Source of the DNA: Nitrospirota bacterium
Lineage (GTDB): Bacteria; Nitrospirota; Nitrospiria; Nitrospirales; Nitrospiraceae
NCBI GenBank assembly: GCA_963701855.1
Contig: CAVPBK010000003.1
Location: forward strand, 1-64,000
Reading direction: 5' to 3'
Length of the DNA stretch: 64,000 nucleotides
Shown: positions 22,001 through 31,000 of the stretch, piece by piece
How positions within the stretch are numbered: the stretch's first letter is position 1
Layout: every line of letters begins with the position of its first letter
Made by a program: the position numbers

Positions 22001-25000
22001 ACAATGTCCGCCGACTAATCCCGGGAAAAACTTCAGAAAGTTCCACTTCGTACCGGCAGCGTCGAGGACCGACTTGGTATCGATTCCGAGACGATGGAAG
22101 ATGAGAGCCAGCTCATTCATCAATGCAATGTTCAGATCGCGCTGTGTGTTCTCGATCACCTTGGCTGCTTCCGCAACCTTAATGCTTGAAGCCCGATGGA
22201 TCCCGGCCTTCACGACGAGCGCATAGGTATTCGCAACGACTTCAAGCGAATCCGCATCCTGAGCCGAAACGACTTTGACGATCTTCTCGAGAGTATGCTC
22301 CTTGTCCCCTGGATTGATGCGCTCTGGTGAATATCCAACCTTGAAGTCAATGCCTGATTTGAGGCCGGAAGTCTTCTCCAGAATGGGGAGACAAATGTCC
22401 TCTGTCACTCCCGGGTAAACCGTAGACTCATAGACAACGATCGTACCAGGCGACATATTTTTGCCGATCAATTCCGAGACCATTCGTAGCGCCTTGAGAT
22501 CCGGCTGGAGCGCTTCATTGATCGGAGTTGGAACGGCCACAATGATGAAGTCGGCGGCCTTGAGGTCGGTAGGCTCCGAAGTATACTGCACATCGGAGGC
22601 TTTGAGGTCGGCCGTCGACACTTCCCCCGTTCGGTCAAAGCCCCTCTGCAGTTCTGCGATCTTTGCTTTGTTGATATCGAACCCGATGACCTTACCCCGC
22701 CTGCCGAAGGCAACGGCGATAGGAAGCCCCACATAACCAAGTCCAACAAGCGCAACCTTTCGTTCGTTCTCTTTCTTTTGAGCCATGAATCCTCTCCGTC
22801 GGTTTTTATTAGAATGGCAGAACGTCGCATTTCCGTCAACGAAGTCGAGTGAGTTCGAGACATACCTCCATTTGCCTATGGATGATCGTCGGTTCTTGAA
22901 AACTCAACTGCGTGTAGATTTTTCCCATGCAGCATTTTCTCCCATAAATGTTACACATGGTTTGTGAATGCGCCGCTATTCACAAGACCTCGACTACTGA
23001 TAATGCTGGGCTTGGGTGAGGAAAAGCGTAGCGTGAGCCCCTGCCGTAGCATCAACTCATCATGGGTTCCCCGTTCCACAATTTGGCCGTGATCGAGGAC
23101 AAAAATACAGTCGGCCATTTTGACAGTAGCCAGTCGATGACTGATCAAAATCGCCATACGCCCTTGAGTGAGTTCGTGAAACCGCTCGAACAATTCCGCT
23201 TCGGCCTTGGCATCCATCGCGCTGGTAGGCTCGTCGAGAATCAGGATCTGAGAATCGCGAAGGATGGCCCTGGCGAGCGCTACTTTTTGCCATTCCCCGA
23301 TGCTCAGTTCATGCCCGCCGTCGAACAGCTTGCCGAGCAATGACTCGTACCCCTTCGGCAAACGCTCGATGGCCTCATGGATCCCAGCCTGTTGGCCGCC
23401 TGCGTGACGGCGGAAAGGTCGATGTCGGGGGATCTCAGGCCCAACGAGATGTTGTCCTTGGCCGAAAACTGGAACTTCACAAAGTCCTGAAAAATTCCGC
23501 TGACGGCGCCACGGACATCGGCAAGGGGATAGTTCCGAAGATCTTCACCATCGACCGTGATGCGCCCCCCCGACGGATCGTACAGACGGCATAGGAGCTT
23601 CACCAGCGTCGTCTTCCCCGCCCCATTGGCTCCGACAAACGCGACATGTTCGCCGGGTCTGATCGTAAAGGTGAACTCCTGGATCGCCACACGTTCTTCA
23701 TGCGGGTATTGGAAGGACACATGATCGAATGTAATCCCCTGCGCGATCGGTTGGGGAAACAACTTCGGATGTGCCGACTTCGGCAAACGAGACTGAATAC
23801 CCAGAAACTCATCCAACGTGGTTAGGAACAAATTGCTCTCATAGAGGCTGGACACACTCTGTCCCAAACTCTCCAGGAATCCGGAGGCCCGCTGCACCGC
23901 CTGGAAAAACATGACGAGGTCGCCCACGGTGAGCAGCCCCTGAAACGTTCGGAACGCCACAAAACTGTAGACCCCGAACACACCGGCCACGCCGATGATC
24001 TGCGCGGCAAAACCCGCGAGCGCCCATCGGCGCTCTAACGCGATCCGTTCTCGACGCAGCACTGATCGCGCGTCTTGGAACCATTGCCGCAACCGAGGGC
24101 CGAGGTCGAACAGCCGGATTTCTTTCGCTGCAATCGCTTGGGTCAGCAGCATATTGACGTACCAGGCTTTCCGCTCAAGCGGCGTCCGCTCGCGCTCCCA
24201 GGCAAACAGCCGATTGGATTGCTGCAGACGGACGAAAAAGTACGGGATGGCCGTCAGCATCAAGATCGGGATCACCCCCCAATGCAACCACCAGAGTATG
24301 GCTGCCATCGCAAACAGTGAAATGGCATCCTGGCCAAATTGGAGCAAGGCGTTGAGAATCGCCGTCGGACGATAAGGCGCTTCTTCTTGTGCGCGATGGA
24401 GCGTATCTTGATAGCGCGCATTCTCGTAGTACTCAAGATCGACCTCGACGGACTTTGCCTGAAGGAGTGCGTGCATATGATCCGTGACGACTTGAGCATG
24501 AATCCTTGAAATCAGAGAGGCCACGCCGGTGAGCATGGCACTGGCCACCGCGACACCTGCCAACCCAGCAAGAATCATGGCCATCCCGCTCAAGGAGCCT
24601 TCGGCTGATGGAGCCTTGAGCCCTTCGGCCACGGCATCGATCAACAACTTCGTCAGATACAGCGCCACCAGCGGAAGAAGGCCTTGGATCACGCGCACCA
24701 CGATACTGCCGATTGCCAGACTCGGGCTGCTCTGCCACACAAACAAGAGAGCGTGGCGAAGCGTCAGGAGGAAGGGGCGGATGCGATTCAGAATGATGTT
24801 CATCGGTGACGGGAACACGTGATGAATGCCTCGTCAGGACATCGTCGTCCTGTTGTTCTGACGCCGAAGGGCAGAGGCCTGCGTCCCAACTGTCGGATCC
24901 GGAGGATGCGAAAAGGTAACGGTGAACCGTTGCCAATGCTGGCCCGTCTCGTGAAAAGGCTGGCCATCCAATGTGAGCCACGCATGGCCATCGAGATTCG

Positions 25001-28000: not shown

Positions 28001-31000
28001 GCCTTCGCAGTGATGTCCCGCAGCAACTCGTGCGTTACGAGCACTGGCTGGACATACACCTCTTTCTTTTCATTCACTCTTTCTCACCTCCTTTCCTGTT
28101 GAAGTAGCCCCTCCTTGACCAATTGGTTGATCAGGGCAACGAGATCGTCCAGGGCCCGATCAGGAGAGACCTCAAAGCGGTCGCACAGGACCGCATGAAT
28201 GTCACTGACGGTGTTGTGGCCGGTACAGTGGTCCCATATGACGCTCCCCAACCGGTTCAGGGTGTAGTACCGCCCGGTACTGAGATCCAACAGCACCGTC
28301 TCGCCCTCCATGCTCGTGCCCTGCACATCAGGGCTGGGCCATAGGATGGTCCGATCCAGCATCGTGATGTCGACGACAGGCTCGGAGGCAATCGGGGGTG
28401 GAGCTACCTGCAGTGGGTCCGACATGGGTCTGTCCTCCTCGGTCCAACGTTCGACTGCTTGTGCAACTCTGTCACTCATGCGTATGCCAGTCCAATACTC
28501 TTAATGAGAGCTATGTACGATCGGACGAACCAGGAATTCTCATACAACCAGACACATTCACGAAAGGCTTCCGCACATTCGTCCCTTGCGCCACCGGAGG
28601 AGCAGCAAAAGTGTTGACTAAGGATTCGAGAATATGGTTGACGCTCCTTAATAATACGAGAAGGTTCGGTTCGGAGAGCACATCCTGGGCCTTTCCAGGA
28701 TCACATGTCACTAGAGTACCCTTCATCGGTTCCATCGACCAGCCCCTCTTTAGAGGGAGTGTACCAGGCTTAGGAGGCTTAAGTTCTAACTCCACCCGCA
28801 ATACTGCAGGGCTTAGTAGGCTCAGGTGTTGCCATGCCAAAGAATACGACATGCACTTGAACGTCGAAGCACGCAAGACCCTGAGCCTGGAGCTGGCCCA
28901 CGGTGATGCGTTCTGAACGATAGCCGCGGTATCGGGACGAGCCCTCAGCATTGTGACCGCGAGGCTGCCCGGAATACGACGCAGGGCAGACACAGCTATC
29001 GGCGGAGACCATCAGTTGCATGCGGCACTTGAAACTGCCCTAGGAGCCTGTCCTACATTGCCATCGTGACGAGGAAAAGGAGGTGCGGCCATATGAGCGG
29101 TGCAAGGCCAGGAAAAACAGGAAGTGTATTCGCTGGAATACCTGAATACGATGCGTTGAGGATTTTTTAGGGCGAGAACGACGCAGATGGTCACAGATCA
29201 TTTGCCACAGTAGAACGGTCACTGTCGGACAGGCTCCTAGTTCTTCCAACGGCCCCCTCTGATGCACCAAGAATAAATAATATGATAGATATCCCATGCA
29301 CTTATGAGATACCACTCCCCCTGTATGAGGTATCCGTCCTGCTTATGCGGGGTTGTTTTGCTAGAGCACAATAGGGCATCATCGCCGTCAAAATCGCATG
29401 AGGAAACGGGCGCAGGCCTCAGAGTGTCGGCTCGCCGCGAACCAGATAGAACCTCACTCATAGCCTATGAAGATATCGACCAACTTGTTCAGTAAGCTCG
29501 TGACCTGCGCCACACTCTTGCTTGCTCTGAGTTCATGCAGCGGCGGCGGGTCTGGTGGAGGAAGTACCCCCACTCCCCTTGCGCCAGCTACTGGTTCCAC
29601 AACCGTCACCGGGACGGTCTCCGGGACCGTCATCAAGGTGTTGCGTGCCGACACGAAGGCCCTCATTTCTCAATTTGACACCGCGCCTCTACCCGGCCCT
29701 CCTCCGTTCCCATTTGCTCTCTCAAATATTCCGGTCGGCCTTCCGGTCGAAATTGTCTTCTTTAGCGCAGGCCAGACGTTCCCTCTCTATGGCGGGAATC
29801 CACCGACAAATGTGTTTACTATGCAGACGGCGGGATCTCTTGATTTGGGAGCCGTCACGATGAGTAGCGGGAGAGCGACGCCCCAGAACCCGCTTATTAA
29901 TGTGATCTTGGGCGTTGAAGATCTTTTAGTTTCGCTTTTAGGAAGCGAGCCGCCGCCGGCAACCCTCACGGTCACGACTCCCCCCGATCCGGACTTCGGA
30001 TCGTTTTGTTATCGTAGAGTTCGCTGTTCAGCACTTCGTCATCGGAGGACAGGGGCAGCAGCACCTCCACATCACGGTGGATGAGGGAGCAACTCGCCAT
30101 TTCTTCAACGGACAATGCAACAACGGACAATCCAACAAGGTGGTAGACGGCAACGGACAACCCACCCCCGATGTTCAATGGCAAAGTGCCACTTCGTTTC
30201 GACTGAACGGATTGTCTCCTGGCCCACATCAAGTCACTGTGAGGTTAGCCACGGCCTCAGATAACGAATTTGTTAACTTGGAGGCCAAACCTGACCCGGT
30301 GAGCATCACGATCGCTGCCTCCCGGTTTCCCCTTCCGCCGTTGACCATCACGAGCCCATCACAGGGAGCTTCATTGCCGTTGGACCCTGTCGACGTGTCG
30401 TTTACAGCCCAGAATTTGACGATCGGAGTCAGGGGGCTCCTCATCTCCATATCTATCTGGATGGCGGAACCACCAAGAACCACTTCTACAACGGAACCAC
30501 CAATAAGGTGCTTGATAACAGCGGACAGCCTGTTGCCAACATCACCTGGCTGAGCACCAATTCGTTTGAGATTACCGACCTCCCAAGCGGTTGCCATTCG
30601 ATTCGACTTGTTCTTGCCAATTCTAGTCACATTGACCTGCAGAACGCGGAAGCCAACCCGCCCATCCTGAACATCAGCATTCAGGCTCCACCTGCTCCTC
30701 CAACATTGACCATCAATAGTCCTGCCCAAGGGGCATCCTTGCCTCCAGGGCCGGTGCTGGTCTCGTTCAATATTCAGAATTCTCCAGTTACCGCACTCGG
30801 CCACTCAGCCGCGAATGCATTTCTACGTCGACGATGATCCCGCCATATTCAAATTCTACGATGGACCAGTGATCACTGAAAATGGCAATACAAGCGGGGT
30901 TCGTTATCCGGACCCCAATACCCAGCAGTATGGTCATACCCACTCCATCCATTGGAAGTCCGGCAGTTCAATTCAAATCAATGCCTTGGCATCCGGTCCT

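What a model noticed while it worked through the whole genome (the two positions that open the first line are those of the whole stretch)
22951..28425. Lasso-type leader, chaperone and protease without a cyclase: a linear hypervariable RiPP family
Two identical gene sets (the second at C3:40231-45666) encode a 47-aa peptide with a lasso-peptide-type leader (YxxPxL...T at -2), the lasso chaperone B1 (PqqD) and leader protease B2, an HPr-kinase-related kinase, an NTP_transf_5 nucleotidyltransferase and an ABC exporter, but no lasso cyclase, and the His/Gly/Phe-rich core (KASGGHHGNFSFGRLFGFFHGHR) has no Asp/Glu with which a lasso ring could be closed. I read this as a new RiPP class that descends from lasso peptides but makes exported linear peptides decorated by phosphorylation/nucleotidylation, here a histidine-rich one that may bind copper or nickel for a metal-hungry nitrifier. 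In relatives the leader is kept while cores are hypervar [...]
Evidence so far: Genes g00335-g00341 and mirror copy g00353-g00358. NCBIfam: g00337 lasso_biosyn_B2 46.5 bits (cut 33); g00341 lasso PqqD chaperone 57 bits (below cut 80); g00339 HprK-related kinase A/B and ScmC (E 5e-16 to 4e-7, below cuts); Pfam NTP_transf_5 219 bits. No Asn_synthase-type gene in either set; Asn_synthase Pfam hits in the genome are only g00580 (asnB, C4), g00031 (larE) and g01125 (queC). TBLASTN with the 47-aa peptide: 4 places in this genome (2 on C3, one beside a lone PqqD gene at C4:269919-270410, one with an in-frame TAG on C12) and 11 more in 6 of 60 other Nitrospiraceae genomes. Translations: leader M..QKKESY.EP.L..HELLRD[IV]T[AG] in 13 of 14 (the C12 copy is cut by a stop), cores of [...]
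(Added by a program. Inside this text positions count along the whole contig: contig position 1 is position 1 of the stretch shown here. "Call 12" and the like, gene names such as g00115 and contig names such as C1 are that model's own, and its searches are not shown. The text may have been shortened before it was handed on; [...] marks where a part breaks off. The agent that wrote the report below was given it as the finding of a first reader that could run no searches.)

Follow-up and report, generated by a model that had tools for sequence, protein, structure and literature searches.

The report
Cyclase-less lasso-type phosphopeptide cluster in Nitrospira
A Nitrospira gene cluster keeps the lasso-peptide leader, chaperone and protease but has no ring-closing enzyme, so it most likely makes exported linear peptides carrying a phosphate-based tag, much like a peptide family described in Bacillus relatives in 2026.

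Summary
The gene content is real. It reads PqqD-type RRE (B1), a 47-aa precursor, an HprK-like kinase, an NTP_transf_5 nucleotidyltransferase, lasso protease B2 and an MsbA-like exporter. There is no lasso cyclase in the cluster or in the 97%-complete genome.

The "two identical sets" are not independent. They are the arms of a spacer-less 68.4-kb palindrome that starts at base 1 of the contig, probably an assembly fold-back. The arms differ, and copy 1's exporter gene carries two 1-nt deletions.

The cluster is conserved in about a third of the Nitrospiraceae genomes sampled. It was not found in the other Nitrospirota families sampled. Canonical lasso clusters with a cyclase occur in a few of the same genomes but are only 14-36% identical.

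Across 142 distinct cores, Thr at -2 is invariant. Position 3 is Ser (97) or Tyr (33); the other 12 have Ser at position 4. Everything else is hypervariable.

This matches the Linear Polyphosphorylated Peptides of Popov et al. 2026, which are phosphorylated at Ser3, lack a cyclase and were said to be restricted to Bacillota. Here B2 replaces their SpI-type peptidase, and the enzymes score nearer to lasso versions.

Verdict: a new variant of a known kind. The metal-binding idea is untested.

The parts
40177..40572 (+). B1: PqqD-type RiPP recognition element (131 aa), intact copy
   Evidence: Pfam PqqD 68.7 bits. NCBIfam lasso_PqqD_Bac 56.8, below its cut-off of 80. Best solved relatives are lasso B1 chaperones: 9x90_B E 1.3e-6, TbiB1, TfuB1.
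40579..40722 (+). A: 47-aa precursor with GTG start. The leader ends ...HELLRDITA. The predicted core is KASGGHHGNFSFGRLFGFFHGHR, with Ser at position 3.
   Evidence: ORF. Ribosome-binding site AGGAAAGGAGGTG upstream. 142 distinct related cores share the leader.
40736..40765 (+). 13-bp GC-rich hairpin followed by GTTTTT, directly after the precursor gene. Terminator- or attenuator-like, or a stabilising 3' stem-loop.
   Evidence: In the 20 relatives' loci plus this window, 27 of 36 80-nt windows after precursor genes fold below the 5th percentile of 180 control windows, and most share a GCTGGCCGG...CCGGCCAGC stem.
40733..41857 (+). K: HprK-like kinase. The ORF is 374 aa; the likely true start is Met30 at 40820, behind the hairpin.
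   Evidence: HprK_rel_A E 6.1e-16, below its cut-off. A profile of the family hits HPr kinase structures 1ko7 and 1jb1. P-loop G203-T211 and D226/D227 are invariant, and M30 is invariant as the start, in 9 sequences.
41854..43077 (+). N: NTP_transf_5 nucleotidyltransferase (407 aa). Its start overlaps the end of K by 4 nt.
   Evidence: Pfam 213.5 bits. AlphaFold model pLDDT 90.3. Foldseek best hits are ANT(2'')-Ia, MenT1, FKRP and LnuA, E 3e-4 to 2e-3. G115 and D133 are invariant and D135 is at least 90% conserved across 20 sequences.
43090..43824 (+). B2: lasso-type transglutaminase-like leader protease. The ORF is 244 aa; the likely start is Met89 at 43354, giving 156 aa.
   Evidence: lasso_biosyn_B2 47.3 bits, above its cut-off of 33. 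Transglut_core3 65.3. C161, H195 and E207 are conserved in at least 95% of 22 sequences. Relatives align from residue 68-93 onward in 18 of 20 loci.
43840..45666 (+). D: MsbA-like ABC exporter (608 aa), without a peptidase domain
   Evidence: ABC_membrane plus ABC_tran. Best NCBIfam match MsbA_lipidA 278.5 bits, below its cut-off.
22951..28479 (-). Mirror copy of the whole set: B1 28084-28479, A 27934-28077, hairpin 27891-27920, K 26799-27923, N 25579-26802, B2 24834-25523, and D 22951-24818. D is broken by two 1-nt deletions.
1..64000 (.). Part of a spacer-less palindrome, C3:1-68395, centre near 34327. Arm identity is 92.3-99.8% by segment. Probable assembly fold-back that joins two strain variants.
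   Evidence: The reads test was inconclusive.

Best explanation
This is a B2-dependent counterpart of the Linear Polyphosphorylated Peptide (LPP) pathway, found in Nitrospiraceae. Every step below is inferred; none was shown here.

1. The precursor is made in excess. A strong ribosome-binding site precedes its gene and a conserved hairpin follows it.
2. The PqqD-type RRE (B1) binds the YxxP leader.
3. The HprK-like kinase phosphorylates the conserved hydroxyl residue at the start of the core, perhaps several times. That residue is Ser3 in this window.
4. The Pol-beta-fold nucleotidyltransferase N builds further on that phosphate or hydroxyl, with a nucleotide or a sugar phosphate.
5. The lasso protease B2, presented with the substrate by B1, cuts after the residue that follows the invariant Thr (Thr at -2).
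6. The MsbA-like pump D exports a linear, tagged peptide with a hypervariable body.

No macrolactam ring is made.
For: Gene set and operon:
- The gene set is confirmed. The operon is tight, with gaps of 6, 10, -4, 12 and 15 nt.

No cyclase:
- The own genome has only an asnB-type Asn synthase and no NF033535 match at E <= 1e-60.
- TBLASTN with the genome's own AsnB was run on 141 cyclase-less loci (1.75 Mb; some places were fetched twice). It gave only 17 weak hits (E 1.6e-7 to 2.6e-6). In the loci with ORF calls these fall inside purF; the rest were not placed.
- The same query hit 14 of 14 canonical lasso loci at E <= 5e-24.

Conservation:
- The kinase is found in 86 of 201 family genomes at E <= 1e-5. 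By my count of the table, 68 have E <= 1e-78.
- All 20 of the 20-kb loci examined hold B1, K, N and B2, and 19 of 20 gave a TBLASTN hit to the precursor.
- Between the two arms, dN/dS is 0.09 for K and 0.36 for N.
- Catalytic-type residues are conserved in K, N and B2.

Cores:
- In 142 distinct cores, Thr -2 is invariant. Position 3 is Ser in 97 and Tyr in 33. The other 12 have Ser at position 4.
- 29 cores have no Asp/Glu, and only 59 have Asp/Glu at positions 7-9.

Precedent:
- In LPP, LppK polyphosphorylates Ser3 of the core, the product is linear, and the leader motif is YxxPxVLxHQxIxFETxxS (PMC13381572, sections 6, 7 and 12 read in full).
- In phosphorylated lasso clusters an HPr-kinase homologue phosphorylates a Ser, and the nucleotidyltransferase adds hexoses to the phosphate (PMC8498205, passages).
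Against: - No product or expression data exist.
- The kinase is only distantly related to LppK. Our profile scores 15-28 bits on the kinases beside LPP precursors, against 33-38 bits on the neighbouring lasso-cluster kinases. Site specificity therefore cannot be carried over by homology: paeninodin-type kinases act on a C-terminal Ser, and LppK acts on Ser3.
- LppK did not accept S3T or S3Y, yet 33 of 142 cores here carry Tyr at position 3. Another 12 carry the Ser at position 4.
- LppN showed no activity in the published heterologous system, so the chemistry of N is open.
- The cleavage site is inferred from the lasso Thr -2 rule alone.
- 59 of 142 related cores do carry Asp/Glu at positions 7-9, several with Gly1. 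A ring is therefore not excluded for those.
Confidence: 0.6

Rival explanations
1. The product is linear and exported, but the chemistry differs from LPP. One version: N nucleotidylates the Ser/Tyr hydroxyl directly. Another: the kinase acts at a different residue, or on N's product. In either case Ser3 is not a polyphosphate site.
For: N has a Pol-beta nucleotidyltransferase fold nearest to ANT(2'')-Ia, MenT1 and LnuA, which nucleotidylate hydroxyl groups, and to FKRP, which transfers a phospho-alcohol. Position 3 is Tyr in 33 of 142 cores, and LppK does not accept Tyr. K is very distant from the characterised kinases.
Against: K and N travel together in every characterised relative. There the kinase acts first on a Ser and N acts on the phosphate.
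Confidence: 0.2
2. The peptide is still cyclised. The ring would be closed either by an unrecognised enzyme (N, or something encoded elsewhere) or by other chemistry such as head-to-tail or C-terminal ligation.
For: 59 of 142 related cores have Asp/Glu at positions 7-9, and many begin with Gly. Type II clusters in relatives carry two ATP-grasp-like genes, one scoring RimK 25.6 bits against a cut-off of 21.
Against: The window's core has no Asp/Glu. The own genome has no lasso cyclase. It also has no homologue of the ATP-grasp-like or FA_hydroxylase genes at E <= 1e-3. By my count, 63 of the 68 genomes with the cluster show no NF033535 match of 360 bits or more. N's fold is a nucleotidyltransferase, not an adenylating ligase.
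Confidence: 0.08
3. The cluster is a decaying remnant of a lasso cluster that lost its cyclase, and it makes nothing.
For: Copy 1's exporter gene is frameshifted. A dead precursor copy lies on C12.
Against: Intact sets are kept across at least 17 of the 39 genera sampled. Active-site residues are conserved, dN/dS is below 1, and precursor genes are multiplied and diversified. Copy 2 is intact.
Confidence: 0.04
4. One reading: the His/Gly/Phe-rich core is an exported copper- or nickel-binding peptide for the nitrifier.
For: The core has 4 His in 23 residues. Some relatives have (GH)n-type cores such as KRSGHGGGHGHGHGFGH....
Against: Most of the 142 cores are not His-rich. They are Gly/Asn-rich, Lys/Glu/Asp-rich, Cys-containing or short hydrophobic types. 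No metal transporter or regulator is linked to the cluster. Nothing here tests binding.
Confidence: 0.1

Closest known systems
Linear Polyphosphorylated Peptides (LPP), Popov et al., Nat Commun 2026 (PMC13381572)
   Same: [quoted passage not shown] Both leaders follow Y..P....H[QE]......T. Both place a conserved Ser at core position 3, which is the polyphosphorylation site proven in LPP. Both carry 1-3 precursor genes with conserved leaders and highly variable cores, many of them Gly/Asn-rich.
   Different: The leader peptidase here is lasso B2 (a transglutaminase-like Cys protease), not the SpI-type LppS. Thr sits at -2 rather than -1. The host family is Nitrospiraceae, whereas the paper calls LPP restricted to Bacillota. 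Our profiles score lower on LppK, LppB and LppN (15-28, 17-47 and 50-100 bits for the genes placed beside LPP precursors) than on most of the lasso-cluster K, B1 and N genes in the same loci (best 38, 60 and 150 bits). Some cores carry Tyr3 or Ser4.
Paeninodin / pseudomycoidin-type phosphorylated lasso peptides, and the canonical B1-B2-C-...-K-N lasso clusters found here in other Nitrospiraceae
   Same: They share B1, B2, an HprK-like kinase, an NTP_transf_5 transferase, an ABC exporter, and a YxxP leader with Thr at -2.
   Different: Those clusters have the Asn-synthetase-like cyclase. According to the review passages, they phosphorylate the C-terminal Ser, whereas the window's peptide ends in Arg. 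Canonical Nitrospiraceae versions are only 14-36% identical to the cyclase-less set across K, N, B1 and B2. They lie elsewhere in the genome when both occur together, in G142, G171, G191, G052 and G084.
NCBIfam HprK-related kinase A/B and the SynChlorMet cassette (ScmC/ScmD)
   Same: Each pairs a PqqD-like protein with an HprK-like kinase. There are weak matches to these models.
   Different: All scores lie far below the cut-offs: 58 against 200, 36.5 against 200, 28.5 against 125 and 41.6 against 100. No radical SAM or ATP-grasp partner is present in this window.

Membership tests
Lasso peptides | Leader with a YxxP motif and Thr at -2 | tested here: met
   YVQPVLVTHELLRDIT-A. Thr is invariant in all 142 distinct precursors; note that the search pattern itself required this Thr.
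Lasso peptides | B1 RRE and B2 Cys protease | tested here: met
   lasso_biosyn_B2 scores 47.3, above its cut-off of 33. The PqqD models score below cut-off, but Pfam PqqD gives 68.7 bits. C161, H195 and E207 are conserved.
Lasso peptides | Asn-synthetase-like macrolactam cyclase (C) | tested here: not met
   None in the cluster. The genome's only full PF00733 protein is asnB-type. No NF033535 match at E <= 1e-60. Of 141 related loci, none has a cyclase-like hit, against 14 of 14 control loci.
Lasso peptides | Asp/Glu at core position 7-9 for ring closure | tested here: not met
   The window's core has no Asp/Glu. Among relatives, 59 of 142 have one at positions 7-9 and 29 of 142 have none at all.
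Linear Polyphosphorylated Peptides (LPP) | Core set of RRE, HprK-like kinase, NTP transferase and MsbA-like exporter, with no cyclase | tested here: met
   compared with section 6 of PMC13381572.
Linear Polyphosphorylated Peptides (LPP) | SpI-like (archaeal-type signal peptidase) leader peptidase LppS | tested here: not met
   None of the six genes is SpI-like; the peptidase is B2. I did not search the rest of the genome for an SpI family.
Linear Polyphosphorylated Peptides (LPP) | Leader consensus YxxPxVLxHQxIxFETxxS, with cleavage after Thr | tested here: inconclusive
   Y, P, H, [QE] and T align at the same spacing, but Ser lies 4 residues after Thr, not 3. The back-translated LPP motif hit 48 stretches, all in Bacillota records. 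The back-translated leader of this family hit 116 stretches; all 80 listed are Nitrospira, Nitrospiraceae, Nitrospirales or Nitrospirota records.
Linear Polyphosphorylated Peptides (LPP) | Polyphosphorylation of Ser3 of the core | not testable with these tools
   Only the conserved Ser/Tyr at position 3, or Ser at position 4, is seen.
Linear Polyphosphorylated Peptides (LPP) | Kinship of the enzymes with the LPP clade | tested here: not met
   Profile scores are lower on LppK, LppB and LppN than on most of the neighbouring lasso versions. B1's best solved match is a lasso chaperone, 9x90_B at E 1.3e-6, against 9x8z_B at E 0.037. No tree could be built.
Paeninodin-type phosphorylated lasso peptides | C-terminal Ser as the kinase's site | tested here: not met
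   The window's core ends in Arg. The C-termini of the 142 cores vary.
NCBIfam HprK_rel_A / HprK_rel_B / SynChlorMet ScmC, ScmD | Score at or above the curated cut-off | tested here: not met
   58.3 against 200; 36.5 against 200; 28.5 against 125; 41.6 against 100.

The most novel reading that the evidence does not exclude
Nitrospiraceae evolved linear phospho-tagged peptides from lasso machinery on their own, independently of the Bacillota LPPs. They kept B2 and dropped the cyclase.

The lineage then diversified. Type I, as in this window, has Ser3. A Ser4 form also exists. Type II has Tyr3 and adds two ATP-grasp-like enzymes and one or two fatty-acid-hydroxylase-type genes, which would make it a hybrid RiPP with no described counterpart.

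The conserved tag on a hypervariable body would then be a general export or cell-surface handle in nitrite oxidisers.
Probability: 0.35. Interest if true: 0.7.

Novelty: new variant of a known kind. Interest (0 to 1): 0.55.

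Why it matters
The 2026 paper defines LPPs by an SpI-type peptidase and states that they are restricted to Bacillota. 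This cluster shows the same logic in a different setting. It is built on the lasso protease B2 and is common in Nitrospira, the main nitrite oxidisers and comammox bacteria of soils and water treatment; it occurs in Ca. Nitrospira defluvii as well.

That gives a second, probably independent case of losing the ring while keeping the tag. It also gives a sharp prediction, the invariant Ser/Tyr at core position 3, that one expression experiment can test.

The function of the LPP and phospho-lasso tag is unknown in any organism. A family with 142 or more different cores behind one leader is good material for finding out.

Tried and rejected
- A PF00733 scan of 201 family genomes, meant to measure cyclase-to-kinase distances, lists only the best 150 of 869 matches, so it was not usable for that. 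I replaced it with region fetches and the NF033535 scan.
- Trees of K and N: the tree programs could not be loaded twice. I used identity ranges instead, so no clade support or rooting is claimed.
- Reads test of the palindrome centre. The best holders share 0.37 of the sampled words or less. Only short, low-depth contigs were laid, none bridges position 34327, and several run on into unlike sequence between 34162 and 34427. No verdict.
- The ESM Atlas search with K gave only generic HprK/ScmC-like clusters from Acidobacteriota and Actinomycetota. Leads only.
- PDB sequence searches with N and B2 found nothing.
- The surroundings of the C4 satellite and the C12 remnant showed only short ORFs, and I did not pursue them.
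- N as a substitute cyclase: rejected for lack of any support. Its fold is a Pol-beta nucleotidyltransferase.
- Literature searches and term look-ups in two RRE papers (zero occurrences) found no description of a B2-type cyclase-less cluster or of this system in Nitrospira. The library lacks most subscription journals. I did not open the supplements of PMC13381572, including its Supplementary Data 1-2 and Fig. 23; they could list non-Bacillota relatives.

Full report
**What is there.**

On the + strand at 40177-45666 lie six tightly packed genes, with gaps of 6, 10, -4, 12 and 15 nt.
- B1 is a PqqD-type RRE. Pfam PqqD scores 68.7 bits. NCBIfam lasso_PqqD_Bac scores 56.8, below its cut-off of 80.
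- A is a 47-aa precursor with a GTG start and a GGAGG-type ribosome-binding site.
- K is an HprK-like kinase. HprK_rel_A gives E 6.1e-16 and 58.3 bits against a cut-off of 200. Pfam Hpr_kinase_C scores 26.3, below its cut-off.
- N is an NTP_transf_5 protein (213.5 bits).
- B2 is the lasso leader protease. lasso_biosyn_B2 scores 47.3, above its cut-off of 33. Transglut_core3 scores 65.3.
- D is an MsbA-like ABC exporter.

The same set lies mirrored at 28479-22951.

**The duplication.**

The two sets are the arms of one palindrome that covers C3:1-68395.
- It begins at base 1 of the contig and turns around near 34327 with no spacer.
- It is the only inverted repeat of 3 kb or more within one contig; the only other one links C6 and C8.
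- Arm identity runs from 92.3% to 99.8% by segment, and most differences are substitutions.
- Between the arms, dN/dS is 0.09 for K and 0.36 for N.
- Copy 1's exporter gene has two 1-nt deletions, one of them in an AAA run.

A spacer-less 34-kb hairpin at a contig end looks like an assembly fold-back that joins two strain variants. I put that at about 85%. In the complete single-contig genomes whose regions I fetched, the type I set is single. A test with public contigs gave no verdict. The second copy is therefore not independent evidence, and "identical" is wrong.

**No cyclase.**

- PF00733 finds one full-length protein in this 97%-complete genome, on C4.
- That protein passes the asnB equivalog (420 bits against 267) and fails the lasso cyclase model (175 against 525). 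It sits beside a glycosyltransferase-like gene.
- NF033535 gives no match at E <= 1e-60 in the own genome.

**Relatives.**

- The kinase has matches in 86 of 201 genomes of the family at E <= 1e-5. By my count of the table, 68 have E <= 1e-78. These tallies include one genome flagged as unpublished (G006); no specific claim rests on it.
- In a sample of the phylum, the clade (E <= 1e-30) is in 26 of 50 genomes of this family and in 0 of 250 genomes from 33 other families.
- Public records that hold it are all named Nitrospira, Nitrospiraceae, Nitrospirales, Nitrospirota or Nitrospirae, except one titled "uncultured bacterium".
- The back-translated leader motif hit 116 stretches among the representative genomes of 185,579 species. 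All 80 listed are Nitrospira-lineage records, and they include the complete genome of Ca. Nitrospira defluvii.
- All 20 of the 20-kb regions examined hold B1, K, N and B2. Precursor genes were found in 19 of the 20 by TBLASTN, one to three or more per region. D is present in 11 of the 20.
- Their flanks are housekeeping genes such as purL and purF, and none of the 25 ORFs scanned (one per ORF group plus four singletons) matches Asn_synthase.
- TBLASTN with the genome's own AsnB was run on 141 such loci (1.75 Mb; some places were fetched twice). It gave only 17 weak hits; in the loci with ORF calls these fall inside purF.
- The same query hit 14 of 14 canonical lasso loci at E <= 5e-24.

**Canonical lasso clusters exist beside it.**

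- NF033535 passes its cut-off in 4 of 201 genomes. About 20 genomes have matches of 360 bits or more.
- Those loci read B1-B2-C-...-K-N. At least two hold ordinary-looking lasso-type precursor ORFs with a YxxP leader.
- Their K, N, B1 and B2 are 14-36% identical to the cyclase-less set, while the cyclase-less set is 26-99% identical within itself.
- Five genomes hold both systems, at separate places: G142, G171, G191, G052 and G084.
- By my count, the other 63 of the 68 genomes with the cluster show no candidate cyclase. Some of those genomes are incomplete.

So the cyclase-less set is a separate, maintained lineage and not a broken lasso cluster.

**Precursors.**

I collected 147 distinct precursors with 142 distinct cores.
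- The leader ...Y..P....H[EQ].LR[DN][IV]T[AG] is kept. Thr at -2 is invariant, though the search pattern required it.
- Cores are 9-40 aa long and otherwise hypervariable. Types include Gly/His/aromatic-rich, Gly/Asn-rich, Lys/Glu/Asp-rich, Cys-containing and short hydrophobic.
- One feature is constant. Core position 3 is Ser in 97 and Tyr in 33. The other 12 have Ser at position 4.
- 29 cores lack Asp/Glu altogether, and 59 have one at positions 7-9.
- The window's core, KASGGHHGNFSFGRLFGFFHGHR, has Ser3 and no acidic residue.

**Literature.**

Popov et al. (Nat Commun, May 2026, PMC13381572) describe Linear Polyphosphorylated Peptides. I read the abstract and sections 6, 7 and 12 in full, plus some passages. 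I did not open the supplements.
- Its leader consensus is YxxPxVLxHQxIxFETxxS.
- Cleavage occurs after Thr.
- Ser3 of the core carries up to four phosphates.
- LppN was inactive in the heterologous host.
- The family is said to be restricted to Bacillota and often lies in capsule loci.

A review (PMC8498205; passages only) reports that HPr-kinase homologues phosphorylate the C-terminal Ser of paeninodin-type lasso precursors, and that the nucleotidyltransferase of pseudomycoidin adds hexoses to that phosphate.

Searches for anything on a B2-type cyclase-less system or on Nitrospira found nothing more (look-ups).

**Comparison with LPP.**

- The leader here aligns with the LPP consensus at Y, P, H, [QE] and T. 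Ser lies one residue further from Thr.
- That is what is expected if B2 cuts one residue after Thr (the lasso Thr -2 rule) while LppS cuts directly after it. In both cases the Ser ends up at core position 3. This is an inference.
- I fetched 48 Bacillota LPP loci with the paper's motif. Their cores begin AQSWN... and are Gly/Asn/Pro-rich.
- Profiles built from the Nitrospiraceae proteins score 15-28 bits on the kinases next to LPP precursors. They score 17-47 bits on the RREs there and 50-100 bits on the transferases placed beside LPP precursors.
- The same profiles mostly score higher on the paeninodin-type lasso genes in the same loci, with best scores of 38, 60 and 150 bits; a few low-scoring hits there overlap the LPP range. 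The B2 profile finds nothing there.
- B1's best solved relative is a lasso chaperone.

The Nitrospiraceae system thus shares the LPP logic, but it is not close kin of the LPP enzymes and uses another peptidase. No tree could be made, so independent origin is a reading and not a result.

**Enzyme state.**

- K keeps its P-loop and the LSDD motif. Its true start is probably Met30.
- B2 keeps C161, H195 and E207 in at least 95% of 22 sequences. From memory, and not tested here, the 12-residue spacing between His and the acidic residue matches lasso B proteases.
- N folds with pLDDT 90.3 as a Pol-beta-type nucleotidyltransferase. Its nearest solved folds are ANT(2'')-Ia, MenT1, FKRP and LnuA. G115 and D133 are invariant and D135 is at least 90% conserved.

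**A conserved RNA feature.**

A 13-bp GC-rich hairpin with a U-run follows the precursor gene at 40736-40765. In the 20 relatives' loci plus this window, 27 of 36 windows after precursor genes fold below the 5th percentile of control windows, and most share a GCTGGCCGG...CCGGCCAGC stem. I read it as an attenuator or a transcript-stabilising stem that raises the ratio of precursor to enzymes.

**Mechanism proposed (all steps inferred).**

1. B1 binds the leader.
2. K phosphorylates Ser3.
3. N extends the tag.
4. B1 and B2 remove the leader after Thr-Ala.
5. D exports a linear tagged peptide.

**Verdict.**

The "new class" was published in 2026.
- This is a new variant of that class, with a different protease and a different phylum, common in nitrite oxidisers.
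- Metal binding is an untested guess.

Noticed in passing
window 1-64000 (C3:1-68395): A spacer-less palindrome with 34-kb arms starts at the contig's first base. The arms are 92.3-99.8% identical in a mosaic pattern. It is probably a long-read assembly fold-back joining two strain variants, so every gene in the window appears twice.
   Followed up: partly
L039, L040, L042-L047, L053, L055, L056 and others (for example L043:6611-8519 and L043:10878-11921): Relatives carry a second, 'type II' form of the cluster. It has two ATP-grasp-like paralogues (one hits RimK at 25.6 bits) and one or two FA_hydroxylase genes. All 33 Tyr3 precursor genes in loci of at least 12 kb lie within 6 kb of both gene types. 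Their cores are Lys/Glu/Asp/Ser/Thr-rich, as in graspetides. The own genome has none of these genes.
   Followed up: partly
G000 C4:269922-270452 and C12:43581-43801: A satellite pair of a PqqD gene and a precursor (core KASGGHHGNAFGRLFGHSNGHR) lies alone on C4. A dead precursor copy with an in-frame stop lies on C12, followed by the conserved hairpin region.
   Followed up: partly
L153-L166 (for example G142:C1:2718000-2737999): Some Nitrospiraceae hold canonical lasso clusters (B1-B2-C-...-K-N) with ordinary precursors. Five genomes hold them together with the cyclase-less cluster, which mirrors the coexistence of LPP and paeninodin-type clusters reported in Bacilli.
   Followed up: partly
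window 40736-40765 (+) and 27891-27920 (-): A conserved GC-rich hairpin (GCTGGCCGG...CCGGCCAGC type) follows almost every precursor gene of the family. Its DNA, read as protein, gives the false N-terminal 29 residues of the annotated kinase ORF.
   Followed up: yes
G000 C6:1189068-1200066: An 11-kb tandem array with a 354-nt period, copies about 99.9% identical. It is presumably a giant repeat protein gene.
   Followed up: no
window 36461-39193 (-), 45877-47178 (+), 47447-49804 (+): The cluster's neighbours here are a 910-aa lipoprotein with a glucose/sorbosone dehydrogenase domain, a UDP-glucose dehydrogenase, and a TPR-secretin protein. In relatives the flanks are instead purL/purF and MBL-fold, AhpC, TPR and O-methyltransferase genes.
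   Followed up: no
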